IMG/VR virus record: IMGVR_UViG_2541047936_000008
Coordinates: 1-24,775 of that record
Length of the DNA: 24,775 bases
From: a virus
Lineage: Duplodnaviria; Heunggongvirae; Uroviricota; Caudoviricetes
Strand: one strand, 5' to 3'
Shown piece after piece: positions 9,001-12,000 of the stretch. Made by a program: the position numbers. Position 1 is the first letter of the stretch. Each line of letters starts with the position of its first letter.

Positions 9001-12000
9001 AGGTTACTCACGGCAGCGCGTTCTGCAGTCAGCAAGCAAGTTACGTCAGAGTGGTCGTGTGGCTCACCGTTGTGAAGGGGATACACGCAGACATTTCCCG
9101 CGCCTGACCAGTTTAACCAGCAGCACATTACCCTGGCGGGATACGAAAAAGAGACCCAGACGCCTGCCGACGAGCTGGTGGCAAGCCGTACCGCCCGCGC
9201 AGCGGTGTTTATTCGCAACGATCCGGCACGTCCCACGCAGACCGGTGAGCTGGTGGGTATGCTGCCTGCGCCGAAGGGGAAACGGTTCACGATGACCGAA
9301 CAACAGACCCTGCTGTCTCATGGCGTGGCAACGGCGTATGTCGAAAGCGGGGTGCTGCGCATTCAGCGTGATGTCACCACGTACAGGAAAAACGCTTACG
9401 GTGTTGCGGATAACAGCTACCTCGACAGCGAGACGCTGCATACCAGCGCGTATGTGCTGCGCAAACTGAAATCCGTCATTACCAGTAAGTACGGGCGTCA
9501 CAAGCTTGCCAGCGACGGTACCCGCTTTGGTCCCGGTCAGGCGATTGTCACACCGGCGGTGATCAAAGGGGAACTGCTGGCAACCTACCGTCAGCTTGAG
9601 CGTGCGGGGATCGTGGAAAACTACGAACTGTTTAAGCAGTACCTGGTTGTGGAGCGTGATGCCAGCGATCCGAACCGCCTGAACACGCTGTTCCCGCCTG
9701 ACTATGTTAACCAGTTGCGTGTCTTTGCCGTGGTTAACCAGTTCCGTCTTCAGTATTCAGAGGAGTCCGCATAATGGCCCGTATCGGGGGAACCTGTTAT
9801 TTCAAAATTGACGGTCAGCAGCTATCGCTGACCGGCGGCATTGAGGTGCCCATGAACAGGACGGTCAATGATGACATCATCGGCCTGGACGGTTCAGTGG
9901 ACCGCAAGGAAACTCACCGTGCGCCTTATGTTAAAGGGACCTTCAAGGTGCCGAAGAATTTTCCGGTGAGCAAAATCACCTCGTCTGATGAGATGACCAT
10001 CACTGCCGAGCTGGCGAACGGTCAGGTCTATGTACTGTCGTCTGCCTGGCTGCACGGCGAAGCAAACCATAATGCCGAAGAAGGGACGGTTGATCTTGAG
10101 TTCCACGGTGAAGAAGGGGATTACCAGTAATGAAAGAGCTTGAGTTAAAGAAACCGATTACCGCTCATGGCGAGACACTCTCCGTACTGGAGTTTGATGA
10201 GCCCACCGGGAAAGATGTCCGCGAGCTGGGGTATCCCTACCAGATGAATCAGGATGAGTCCGTCAGACTTCTGGCGCATGTGGTGTCGAAATACATTGTG
10301 CGGCTGGCGAAAGTGCCGCAAAGCTCTGTCGACCAGATGTCTCCGGCAGACCTGAATGCAGCGGCGTGGCTTGTGGCTGGTTTTTTCCTCCAGGCCTGAC
10401 GGCTGAATACCTCACTGATCGCTTCTTTGACTGCGCCAGCTACTGGCGCATTAATCCCTTCGAATTGCTGAATATGCCGATCAGTGAAATTCCCTTGCTG
10501 GTCAGTCAGGCAAACAGGATAGAGCAGGAGAAACGCACACATGGCTGAATTTGAGCTTAAGGCGTTGATCACCGGTGTCGACAGGCTTTCTCCCGCGCTG
10601 TCGAAAATGCAAAAGAAAATCCGGGGATTTAAACGCCAGGCGGAAGAAGCGTCACAGGGTGGGCTGGCGCTTGGTGGAGGACTGGCAGCGGGGCTGACGC
10701 TTTCCCTGAAATCTTATGCCGATCAGGAAAACGCCGCTACCGGGCTGAAAGTCGCCATGATGGATGCGAACGGCGAGGTTGGAAAGAGCTTTCAGGACAT
10801 CAATAAACTGGCTATTGGCCTGGGTAACCAGCTACCCGGTACAACGGCTGATTTCCAGAACATGATGCAGATGCTGGTGCGTCAGGGGATCCCGGCAGAA
10901 AACATTCTGGGTGGTGTGGGTAAAGCGACAGCTTATCTTGCGGTACAACTGAAAAAAACACCGGAAGCGGCTGCTGAGTTTGCTGCAAAGATGCAGGATG
11001 CTACCGGAACGGCGTCAGAAGACATGATGGGGCTGTTCGACACTATCCAGAAGGCGTTTTATCTGGGCGTTGACGATACCAACATGTTGTCCTTCTTCAC
11101 TAAAACCAGTTCTGTTCTGAAGATGGTGAACAAGGACGGTCTTCAGGCTGCACAGAGCCTTGCCCCCATCAGCGTCATGATGGATCAGATGGGGATGAAC
11201 GGGGAGTCGGCAGGTAATGCCCTGCGAAAAGTTATCCAGTCCGGATTAAGCGTTAAGAAAATCAGGGACGTCAATAAAGTCATGGCCCGCCAGAGACTCG
11301 GGGTACAGCTCGATTTTACTGACGGCAAAGGAAGTTTTGGCGGTCTTGATAACATGTTCAGGCAACTGGCAAAGCTGCGAAAACTGACCGACGTTAAGCG
11401 AACAGGTGTACTTAAGGCAATATTTGGTGATGATGCCGAAACCCTTCAGGTGGTCAATGCACTAATCGATAAAGGAAAGGATGGCTACGATCAGATCCAG
11501 CAGAAGATGAATAAACAGGCCAGCCTGAATAAACGTGTTCAGGCACAGCTTGGTACGCTGTCCAACCTGTGGGAGGCAATGACGGGGACCGCAACTAACG
11601 GCCTTGCGGCTATTGGCGGCGCATTTTCTGGTGACGCCAAAAATATCACGCAATGGCTGGGGGAGTTGGGGGAAAAATTCACGAAGTTTGCGGATGAAAA
11701 TCCCCGGGTTATTCGCGGCGTCGTCGGGCTTGCTGCCGGTCTTGCGATTCTGAAACTGGGATTGATGGGCGTGGGCAGTGCCATCAGTATTGTCAGCAGG
11801 ATTATGTCGATGACGCCGATTGGCATGATTGCGACGGCGATTGCTCTGGCTGCGGGATTAATTATCACTAACTGGGATGTTGTCGGACCTTATTTCAAGA
11901 AGCTCTGGGAAACCATTGGTCCTTATTTTGAGGCAGGTTGGGAACTTCTGAAGAAGGTTTTTGCCTGGTCGCCGCTGGGGATGGTGATCAATAACTGGGG

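What the first reader, a model, noticed from the sequence alone, without database searches (positions are those of the whole stretch)
10366..10548. Programmed -1 ribosomal frameshift site in the tail assembly chaperone
The chaperone ORF ends at 10399 but a -1 frame ORF continues to 10548, and the overlap contains the canonical slippery heptamer T TTT TTC (10381-10387) in the zero frame. Slipping here yields a G-GT type fusion ending exactly at the tape measure start, the conserved arrangement in tailed phages.
Basis: partly seen in the sequence, partly recalled or inferred. Interest (0 to 1): 0.4.

Follow-up and report, generated by a model that had tools for sequence, protein, structure and literature searches.

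The report
Phage tail chaperone frameshift site
This is an ordinary, well-conserved programmed -1 ribosomal frameshift signal in the tail assembly chaperone gene of an SfV-like prophage, the same kind of device known from phages lambda (G/GT) and P2 (E/E+E'), sitting here in a prophage that has lost its head genes.

Summary
The 89-codon chaperone gene (10130-10399, Pfam PF10109) reads GGT TTT TTC in its own frame, so T_TTT_TTC (10381-10387) is a slippery heptamer in the correct register. The -1 frame stays open to TGA 10546-10548, which overlaps the tape measure ATG (10541) by 8 nt rather than ending exactly at it.

About 25 related loci (34-100% chaperone identity) were compared; every one except a single unverified record has a T6N heptamer at the same position. 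The zero-frame stop moves between them. The -1 extension evolves as coding sequence and mostly has no start codon of its own. Synonymous variation is zero across GGT-TTT-TTC-CCT. In phage P2 the known E/E+E' shift site (TTTTTTG) maps to the same PF10109 profile position, with product sizes of 91/142 aa against 89/139 here.

No stimulatory RNA structure or upstream Shine-Dalgarno sequence was found. The efficiency is unknown.

The mechanism is textbook. The only new points are that public records of this phage group do not annotate it, and that this copy lies in a prophage deleted from the early region into the sheath gene. Interest is low.

The parts
9774..10130 (+). Tail tube gene (118 aa), the upstream neighbour that fixes the gene-order context
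   Evidence: PF10618 Tail_tube, E=2.4e-33. Annotated as tail tube protein in SfV and in the PGAP record.
10130..10399 (+). Tail assembly chaperone gene. Its zero-frame product is 89 aa (G/E-like) and is the expected major product.
   Evidence: PF10109 Phage_TAC_7, 60.3 bits against a cut-off of 25. phrog_166 tail protein, E=7e-24. Annotated 'phage tail assembly protein' by PGAP.
10381..10387 (+). Slippery heptamer T_TTT_TTC in the zero-frame register (P-site TTT, A-site TTC)
   Evidence: Read directly from the sequence. Identical in 16/16 aligned relatives and in 77/77 near-identical viral contigs. T6N at the same position in SfIV, ST64B, phiP27, BgVeeders33, DVM-2008, PG1, a Bordetella phage and P2.
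10379..10389 (+). Invariant 11-nt block GGTTTTTTCCT around the shift site, where synonymous variation falls to zero
   Evidence: Invariant columns 19-29 of alignment A2. The synonymous codon difference is 0.0 at G84, F85, F86 and P87, against a gene-wide mean of 0.48.
10387..10548 (+). -1 frame extension (53 codons plus the TGA stop), the T/E'-like C-terminal domain reached only by frameshifting
   Evidence: Open in all relatives. Substitution periodicity by codon position is 0.30/0.21/0.50 in the -1 frame. Synonymous:nonsynonymous differences are 1554:2244, against 459:3495 in the zero frame. phrog_32181, E=4e-40. No conserved start codon.
10526..10530 (+). AGGAG Shine-Dalgarno-like sequence 10 nt upstream of the tape measure ATG, lying inside the -1 extension
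   Evidence: Read from the sequence. Conserved as [AG]GGA[GA] in alignment A2, columns 166-170. That it is used as a ribosome binding site is inferred.
10541..12373 (+). Tape measure protein gene (610 aa). Its start overlaps the fusion stop by 8 nt (ATGGCTGA).
   Evidence: PF10145, E=1e-26. PGAP annotates the same 1833-nt gene in a relative that is 99.4% identical over window 9105-24775. ATGGCTGA is conserved in most relatives.

Best explanation
This is a programmed -1 ribosomal frameshift that makes two tail assembly chaperones from one start codon. Most ribosomes read 10130-10399 and release the 89-aa chaperone. A minority shift while tRNA-Phe occupies both the P site (UUU, 10382-10384) and the A site (UUC, 10385-10387). 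Both tRNAs re-pair one base back, on UUU UUU (10381-10386). Decoding then continues at CCU (10387) in the -1 frame to UGA 10546-10548. The result is a 139-aa fusion, ...WLVAGFF-PPGLTAEY...RTHG.

By analogy with lambda gpG/gpGT and P2 gpE/gpE+E', the shared N-terminal part would coat the tape measure protein encoded immediately downstream. The extra C-terminal domain would recruit the tail tube protein. The fixed low ratio set by the shift efficiency would be what tail assembly needs.

Shown here: the signal, its register, its conservation, the coding nature of the -1 frame, and the lack of an independent start. Inferred: that shifting occurs, its frequency, and the roles of the two proteins. 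In this particular window the prophage has lost its head genes and the first half of the sheath gene, so the signal is probably an intact relic rather than in productive use.
For: - Register and frames are read directly from the sequence.
- Gene order is tube, chaperone, tape measure, and the chaperone belongs to PF10109.
- 17 genome loci (55-100% identical) and phages AH07, SfIV, ST64B, phiP27, BgVeeders33, DVM-2008, PG1 and a Bordetella phage all keep a T6N heptamer in register, with a -1 frame open to the tape measure start.
- The zero-frame stop lies 9, 24-27, 30 or 63 nt after the heptamer in different lineages, while the heptamer itself stays fixed.
- Fusion length is 136-142 aa throughout.
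- Substitution periodicity and the synonymous excess show the -1 frame is coding.
- Synonymous variation is zero at GGT TTT TTC CCT, including the four-fold degenerate third base of GGT. That base is needed only for re-pairing.
- The GTG at 10366 is absent from most relatives and none has a Shine-Dalgarno sequence there.
- The P2 E/E+E' pair is annotated with a -1 shift at TTTTTTG, with 91/142 aa products and an 8-nt overlap with gene T (PMC3091744).
- The A-site codon of the heptamer maps to PF10109 profile position 78 of 79 in the window (F86), in P2 (L85) and in SfIV (F86).
- H_HH.U_UU.Y heptamers are among the most shift-prone in E. coli (PMC4066793).
Against: - There is no protein or reporter evidence for this sequence.
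- No stimulatory element was found. The 60 nt downstream fold no better than shuffles (z=+0.15), the alignment fold shows no covariation near the site, no Shine-Dalgarno-like sequence lies in the 20 nt upstream, and Rfam gives no match.
- In an E. coli reporter, UUUUUUC without a stimulator gave only 0.12% shifting (PMC4066793 supplement). That is well below the few percent reported for lambda and P2.
- One distant relative, Paraburkholderia phage IPK (an UNVERIFIED record), has no T6 heptamer.
- The host prophage here is deleted, so the site may never be used productively in this genome.
Confidence: 0.9

Rival explanations
1. Transcriptional slippage: RNA polymerase adds or drops a U in the T6 run, giving a minority of mRNAs in which the two frames are fused. 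The ribosome then reads these mRNAs normally.
For: The site is a homopolymer run (T6 here, T7 in SfIV, ST64B and phiP27). Sequence analysis cannot separate the two routes to the same fusion protein.
Against: Known bacterial slippage sites are runs of about 9 A or T (PMC5009743); T6 is short. The conserved feature is the zero-frame register of the heptamer, including the base before the run (GGT, CGT, AAT) and a fixed Z base, which matters for tRNA re-pairing. The P2 and lambda cases are described as translational (PMC5009743, PMC3091744). A one-U deletion in the mRNA would give a fusion one Phe shorter; this has not been tested.
Confidence: 0.05
2. The -1 ORF 10366-10548 is a separate small gene, translated from its own GTG. 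Some records annotate it this way ('hypothetical protein', phrog_32181).
For: ORF lists and at least one GenBank record (ON470584) call it as a separate 60-aa CDS. A PHROG family exists for it.
Against: The GTG has no Shine-Dalgarno-like sequence. In most relatives (L007-L011, L014-L016, L019, L020, SfIV, ST64B, phiP27, BgVeeders33) no ATG, GTG or TTG exists in the -1 frame upstream of the conserved domain, and L014 and L020 have none in the whole open -1 frame. In several relatives the -1 frame opens only 21-30 nt before the heptamer.
Confidence: 0.03
3. It is a chance coincidence or a decayed gene: either a single ancestral 139-codon gene broken by a frameshift mutation in a defective prophage, or an accidental heptamer.
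For: The prophage in the window is defective. The heptamer itself is common in the window. A stop-free run of 49 codons is not rare by itself.
Against: The same two-frame layout is present in intact, viable phages (SfV, SfI, SfII, AH07, P2) and in at least eight divergent lineages. All 77 near-identical viral contigs in which the site could be located (of 80) have T6. Coding constraint is present in the -1 frame.
Confidence: 0.02

Closest known systems
Phage P2 gpE / gpE+E' (programmed -1 frameshift at TTTTTTG in the FETUD tail operon; Christie et al. 2002, as cited in PMC3091744 and PMC5009743)
   Same: Both belong to Pfam family PF10109. Both have a GG-TTTTTT-N heptamer whose A-site codon maps to profile position 78/79. 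Product sizes are almost the same: 91/142 aa against 89/139 aa. In both, the gene lies directly upstream of the tape measure gene, and the fusion stop overlaps its ATG by 8 nt. Neither has a downstream hairpin (PMC3091744).
   Different: The last base of the heptamer is C, not G. The chaperone sequences are not detectably similar pairwise (BLASTP E=0.37). The -1 domain does not match the Pfam model for the P2 E' region (PF06528) and gives only 2% probability in a profile comparison. The surrounding tail module is of the Mu/SfV type rather than the P2 type.
Phage lambda gpG / gpGT (programmed -1 frameshift at G_GGA_AAG; Levin et al. 1993; Xu, Hendrix and Duda 2004, 2013, 2014, as cited in PMC5009743)
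   Same: The logic and gene order are the same: two chaperones share an N-terminus, are made at a fixed ratio, and are encoded between the major tail gene and the tape measure gene. The shift is -1 and occurs near the end of the first ORF.
   Different: The heptamer is different. No sequence family is shared (no Pfam overlap was found). Lambda has a non-contractile tail, whereas this is a contractile-tail module.
Phage Mu gp41 (tail assembly chaperone; the literature reports a -2 frameshift)
   Same: The tail module of SfV-type phages is Mu-like (sheath L, tube M, DNA circularisation protein N). Mu gp41 also gives a marginal PF10109 hit (E=2.5e-5, 24.7 bits, just under the 25-bit cut-off) and occupies the same position.
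   Different: Mu gp41 is 144 aa and belongs to PF23746. It has no in-register heptamer and no -1 frame extension; only its +1/-2 frame is open toward the tape measure gene. This agrees with the reported -2 shift (PMC5009743).
SfV orf13, SfI, SfII and related E. coli / Shigella prophages (the same locus in public records)
   Same: 98-99% nucleotide identity across tube, chaperone and tape measure start. The heptamer and the -1 frame are identical.
   Different: The records seen do not annotate the frameshift. RefSeq SfV and PGAP leave a gap between the chaperone and the tape measure gene, and ON470584 calls a separate hypothetical protein. The window copy is in a prophage with a large internal deletion.

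Membership tests
Frameshifted tail assembly chaperone pair (lambda G/GT, P2 E/E+E' class) | The gene lies between the major tail (tube) gene and the tape measure gene | tested here: met
   Tube gene 9774-10130 (PF10618), chaperone 10130-10399 (PF10109), tape measure gene 10541-12373 (PF10145). The order is the same in SfV and in the PGAP record.
Frameshifted tail assembly chaperone pair (lambda G/GT, P2 E/E+E' class) | A second ORF overlaps the 3' end of the first in the -1 frame and has no translation start of its own | tested here: met
   The -1 frame is open from 10258 to 10548. The GTG at 10366 is not conserved and has no Shine-Dalgarno sequence, and many relatives have no start codon at all before the conserved domain.
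Frameshifted tail assembly chaperone pair (lambda G/GT, P2 E/E+E' class) | A slippery X_XXY_YYZ heptamer in the zero-frame register lies inside the overlap | tested here: met
   T_TTT_TTC at 10381-10387, with codons GGT TTT TTC. It is the only in-register heptamer in the overlap.
Frameshifted tail assembly chaperone pair (lambda G/GT, P2 E/E+E' class) | The signal and the two-frame layout are conserved in relatives, and the second frame is under coding constraint | tested here: met
   About 25 loci in at least 8 lineages keep T6N in register. Substitution periodicity is 0.30/0.21/0.50 in the -1 frame. Synonymous variation is zero at the site. One exception was found, the UNVERIFIED record of phage IPK.
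Frameshifted tail assembly chaperone pair (lambda G/GT, P2 E/E+E' class) | Both proteins are made from one start at a fixed ratio, both are required for tail assembly, and both are absent from virions | not testable with these tools
   Needs a reporter assay, western blot, mass spectrometry and phage genetics.
Pfam PF10109 Phage_TAC_7 (chaperones E, 41, 14) | Score above the curated gathering threshold | tested here: met
   60.3 bits against a cut-off of 25; residues 4-86 match profile positions 2-78 of 79.
Pfam PF06528 Phage_P2_GpE (the E' region of P2 E+E') | The -1 encoded domain matches the family model | tested here: not met
   The 53-aa extension gives no hit at E<=1, while P2 E+E' scores 76 bits. 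Comparing a profile of the extension with the P2 E' sequence gives 2% probability. A shared [FY]W..P.EL motif and a weak hit for the Bordetella phage homologue (E=0.0098) only hint at distant relatedness.
Mu gp41 type (PF23746, -2 frameshift) | PF23746 domain, with the extension in the +1/-2 frame | tested here: not met
   The window chaperone hits only PF10109. Its +1 frame closes after 2 codons. Mu has the opposite layout.
Stimulated bacterial -1 frameshift signals (dnaX, IS3/IS911 type) | A downstream hairpin or pseudoknot 5-9 nt after the heptamer and/or a Shine-Dalgarno-like sequence 6-17 nt upstream | tested here: not met
   Downstream 53-100 nt: z = +0.45, +0.15 and -1.25. The consensus fold has no supported helix next to the site. 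No GGAG, AGGA or GAGG occurs in the 20 nt upstream. No Rfam match.

The most novel reading that the evidence does not exclude
The site may reach a useful shift frequency without any canonical stimulator because of an unrecognised local or long-range element. The candidates are the invariant GGUUUUUUCCU block, whose CCUCC is identical to the anti-Shine-Dalgarno sequence and is predicted to pair with the tape measure gene's AGGAG about 140 nt downstream, and the conserved 8-bp hairpin at 10432-10450. Such an element could link the chaperone ratio to tape measure translation.
Probability: 0.05. Interest if true: 0.45.

Novelty: new member of a known kind. Interest (0 to 1): 0.15.

Why it matters
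Mostly for annotation. The 139-aa fusion chaperone is missing from the public records of SfV-type phages and prophages that I inspected. There the -1 region is either left as an intergenic gap or called as an orphan hypothetical protein (phrog_32181). Annotating it correctly would remove a spurious protein family and add a real tail assembly protein to a very common group of E. coli and Shigella prophages. Biologically it adds nothing new to the established lambda G/GT and P2 E/E+E' picture. It does show that T6N at the end of the PF10109 domain is a family-wide, position-conserved shift site across enterobacterial, Pseudomonas, Burkholderia and Bordetella phages.

Tried and rejected
- **Downstream stimulatory structure.** Folds of 53, 60 and 100 nt after the heptamer are no better than shuffles. 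Twelve homologues were folded, and only Burkholderia BgVeeders33 has a strong hairpin (z=-3.55), so this is not a family feature.
- **Consensus structure.** The only solid helix (10432-10450) lies 45 nt downstream, shows no compensatory changes, and breaks in the two sequences where it varies. I rejected it as a stimulator.
- **Rfam scan of 10100-10700.** Only a chance CRISPR-repeat hit, E=0.57.
- **Homology of the -1 domain to P2 E'.** Not supported by BLASTP, Pfam or hhalign.
- **Solved structures.** Only spurious light-harvesting protein hits.
- **NCBIfam.** No model matches either the window fusion or P2 E+E'.
- **AlphaFold on the fusion without an alignment.** pLDDT 47, unusable, so no fold search was run.
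- **Literature on SfV and its relatives.** Searches for an explicit description of the frameshift found nothing in the held library. The SfV genome paper and the P2 frameshift paper are not held. I therefore could not check whether Xu et al. 2004 already list SfV.
- **IMG/VR scan.** It returned only 100%-identical proteins, useless for diversity but useful as a T-run polymorphism check.
- **Locus L021 (Omnitrophota).** A spurious pattern hit, ignored.
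Full report
**Observation**

The window sequence at 10379-10399 reads GGT TTT TTC CTC CAG GCC TGA in the frame of the ORF 10130-10399 (89 aa). T TTT TTC at 10381-10387 is therefore an X_XXY_YYZ heptamer in the zero-frame register. The ORF list gives 10366-10548 (GTG start, 60 aa) in the -1 frame. That frame is actually open from 10258.

A -1 slip on the heptamer joins 86 zero-frame residues to 53 residues of the -1 frame, giving a 139-aa protein that ends at TGA 10546-10548. The tape measure gene starts at ATG 10541, so the two overlap by 8 nt (ATGGCTGA) rather than abutting.

**Context**

Window 9105-24775 is 97-99% identical to SfV/SfI/SfII-type prophages of E. coli and Shigella integrated at dusA.
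- The upstream neighbour is the tail tube gene (PF10618).
- The gene itself belongs to PF10109, 'tail assembly chaperone proteins E, or 41 or 14', scoring 60.3 bits against a cut-off of 25.
- The downstream neighbour is the tape measure gene (PF10145).
- The 53-aa extension matches phrog_32181, a family of unknown function (E=4e-40). The -1 ORF is therefore often called as an orphan protein.
- RefSeq SfV and PGAP leave this stretch unannotated, and ON470584 calls a separate hypothetical protein. None of the records I looked at annotates a frameshift.

**Is it more than chance?**

The heptamer alone is not: TTTTTTC occurs 11 times in the window against 6.3 expected. The combination is rarer. 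Among 64 mechanical ORFs of at least 80 aa in the window, only this gene and a deletion-junction artefact combine an in-register heptamer with a -1 extension of at least 30 codons. The real weight comes from comparison with relatives.

**Comparative evidence**

- *Relatives examined.* A scan of one genome per species gave 17 loci with 55-100% chaperone identity. A tblastn of the fusion against phage records matched both halves, in two frames, in AH07, SfIV, ST64B, phiP27 and Burkholderia BgVeeders33. It matched the first half only in Pseudomonas DVM-2008, PG1, Bordetella phages and Paraburkholderia IPK.
- *Heptamer conservation.* All of these except IPK have a T6N heptamer in the zero-frame register: TTTTTTC in most, TTTTTTT in SfIV, ST64B and phiP27, and TTTTTTG in PG1, the Bordetella phage and P2. 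All have a -1 frame open as far as the tape measure start.
- *Moving stop, fixed heptamer.* The zero-frame stop lies 9, 24-27, 30 or 63 nt beyond the heptamer in different lineages, while the heptamer stays put.
- *Fusion length.* 136-142 aa everywhere.
- *Coding constraint in the -1 frame.* Downstream of the zero-frame stop, mean pairwise divergence by codon position in the -1 frame is 0.30/0.21/0.50. This is the same pattern as in the chaperone upstream (0.28/0.19/0.55). Synonymous:nonsynonymous codon differences are 1554:2244 in the -1 frame, against 459:3495 and 330:3447 in the other two frames.
- *Zero synonymous variation at the site.* The synonymous codon difference averages 0.48 over the gene and is exactly 0 at G84 (GGT), F85 (TTT), F86 (TTC) and P87 (CCT). 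The third base of GGT is four-fold degenerate and is not translated in the -1 frame, so only the re-pairing requirement explains its invariance.
- *Near-identical copies.* All 77 near-identical viral contigs in which the site could be located (of 80) have a T6 run.

**Independent initiation is excluded**

The GTG at 10366 has no Shine-Dalgarno-like sequence. In most relatives there is no ATG, GTG or TTG in the -1 frame before the conserved domain, and two relatives have none in the whole open -1 frame.

**Closest known system**

In phage P2 the record annotates E (91 aa) and E+E' (142 aa, joined CDS) with a site of -1 translational frameshift. The E+E' stop overlaps gene T by 8 nt.
- The P2 heptamer is GG-TTTTTT-G. 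PMC3091744 states that the P2 shift occurs at TTTTTTG, gives 91-aa and 142-aa products, and lacks a downstream structure.
- PF10109 aligns window residues 4-86 and P2 residues 7-85 to profile positions 2-78 of 79. The A-site codon of the heptamer (F86 in the window, L85 in P2, F86 in SfIV) therefore sits at the same profile position in all three. This is positional homology with an annotated, published shift site.
- The -1 domains are not demonstrably homologous: the extension gives no PF06528 hit and 2% hhalign probability. They do share a [FY]W..P.EL motif, and the Bordetella intermediate gives a weak PF06528 hit.
- Mu, despite its 'Mu-like' tail module, differs. Mu gp41 (PF23746) has no in-register heptamer and no -1 extension, and only its +1/-2 frame is open. 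This agrees with the review statement that Mu uses -2 frameshifting (PMC5009743).

**Stimulators**

- The 53, 60 and 100 nt after the heptamer fold no better than shuffles (z = +0.45, +0.15 and -1.25).
- Of twelve homologues folded, only the GC-rich BgVeeders33 has a strong hairpin beginning 7 nt after the site.
- The consensus fold finds one solid helix, at 10432-10450. It lies 45 nt downstream, has no compensatory changes, and encodes the conserved C-A-S-Y-W-R motif.
- No Shine-Dalgarno-like sequence lies in the 20 nt upstream, and Rfam has no match.
- The lack of a stimulator matches P2 and lambda but leaves the efficiency open. In an E. coli reporter UUUUUUC gave 0.12% shifting without a stimulator, 0.9% with the IS911 stimulator and 7.6% with the IS3 pseudoknot. 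H_HH.U_UU.Y motifs are among the most shift-prone in E. coli (PMC4066793).
- The review gives a lambda product ratio of about 30:1, with P2 two- to three-fold higher in efficiency.

**Mechanism**

*Inferred:* tandem slippage of tRNA-Phe from UUU UUC to UUU UUU. The 89-aa protein would be the major product and the 139-aa fusion the minor one. By analogy with lambda and P2, the common part would bind the tape measure protein and the extension would bind the tube protein.

*Shown:* the signal, its register, its conservation, the coding constraint on the -1 frame, and the absence of a separate start.

Transcriptional slippage cannot be excluded from sequence, but T6 is short compared with the runs of 9 cited for bacteria.

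**Caveat for this copy**

Homology to SfV-type tail genes begins abruptly at 9105, in the middle of the sheath gene. The sequence up to 9108 is the early region of a related prophage and ends inside a PerC-family gene. The lysis, packaging, head and connector genes and the first half of the sheath gene are therefore missing, and the whole prophage between the dusA repeats is only about 22 kb. None of 5,426 complete E. coli genomes has the same junction. The frameshift signal is intact, but this element cannot build a tail on its own.

**Verdict**

This is an ordinary member of a well-known class, and its closest relative is P2 E/E+E'. Its value lies in annotation rather than in discovery.

Noticed in passing
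window 9105-9108 (context 8915-9774): This is a deletion junction. A PerC-family regulator gene starting at 8915 is cut after about 194 nt and joined to the middle of the tail sheath gene, of which only the C-terminal ~198 codons remain (9178-9774). Lysis, terminase, portal, capsid and connector genes are absent, so the prophage is defective. No complete E. coli genome in the collection has this junction.
   Followed up: partly
window 1070-1180 and 23361-23471: A ~110-nt copy of the dusA 5' end, 91% identical and with a 16-nt exact core (ATGCCTGAAAAAACTG), lies at the left edge of the element. The integrase (22176-23273, minus strand) sits next to the intact dusA (23362-24399). This is the usual signature of dusA-targeting prophages and brackets an element of only about 22.3 kb. 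The DUF2713 gene at 1-708 is the chromosomal flank.
   Followed up: partly
window 10432-10450: A perfect 8-bp hairpin, UGCGCCAG-CUA-CUGGCGCA, lies inside the -1 extension, 45 nt after the heptamer. It is conserved in 14 of 16 relatives and shows lowered synonymous variation (0.28 against 0.48). It has no compensatory changes, and it encodes the conserved C-A-S-Y-W-R motif. It is probably a by-product of coding, and it is too far downstream to be a classical frameshift stimulator.
   Followed up: partly
window 10385-10392 and 10526-10530: The bases right after the T run read CCUCC, identical to the anti-Shine-Dalgarno sequence. The consensus fold pairs UUCCU with the AGGAG in front of the tape measure ATG, about 140 nt away. 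The 5' side is invariant, so covariation cannot test this pairing. SfIV-type phages and P2 lack the CCUCC.
   Followed up: no
public records: L001 (SfV NC_003444) 3626-3768; L003 (NZ_OY754392) 4295-4437; L002 (ON470584) 2093-2275: RefSeq and PGAP leave the -1 extension as an unannotated gap between the chaperone and the tape measure gene. One GenBank record calls it a separate hypothetical protein. PHROGs holds it as an orphan family of unknown function (phrog_32181).
   Followed up: yes
L113 (Paraburkholderia phage IPK, UNVERIFIED record) 940-1000: This distant homologue encodes GFF as GGC TTC TTC, with no T6 run. Its -1 frame opens only 10 nt before the zero-frame stop, so it either shifts at a different, non-canonical site or the record has an error.
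   Followed up: partly
L016 2738-2751, L017 2738-2751 (Kosakonia / LSJC7 clade): In this more divergent clade a Shine-Dalgarno-like GGGAGG(UG) lies 6-9 nt upstream of the heptamer, within the W-E codons, and a modest hairpin starts 1 nt after the heptamer (z -1.1 to -1.9). Neither feature is present in the window.
   Followed up: no
L105 (Burkholderia phage BgVeeders33) 863-912: This phage has a strong GC-rich hairpin starting 7 nt after its TTTTTTC heptamer (-26.8 kcal/mol, z=-3.55). It is the only relative with a canonical-looking stimulator.
   Followed up: no
database proteins P0001, P0007, P0116 (137-139 aa): A few single-contig metagenome and Logan proteins join the chaperone and the -1 domain in one frame, but with scrambled residues around the junction. 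They look like indel errors in low-quality assemblies, not natural fused genes.
   Followed up: partly
window ~19366-20795: Two tail fibre assembly genes overlap on opposite strands (19366-19833 on plus, 19369-19809 on minus), next to a recombinase-family gene (20193-20795). The annotation comes from a relative that is 99.4% identical over window 9105-24775. The layout suggests a Gin/Pin-type invertible host-range segment.
   Followed up: no
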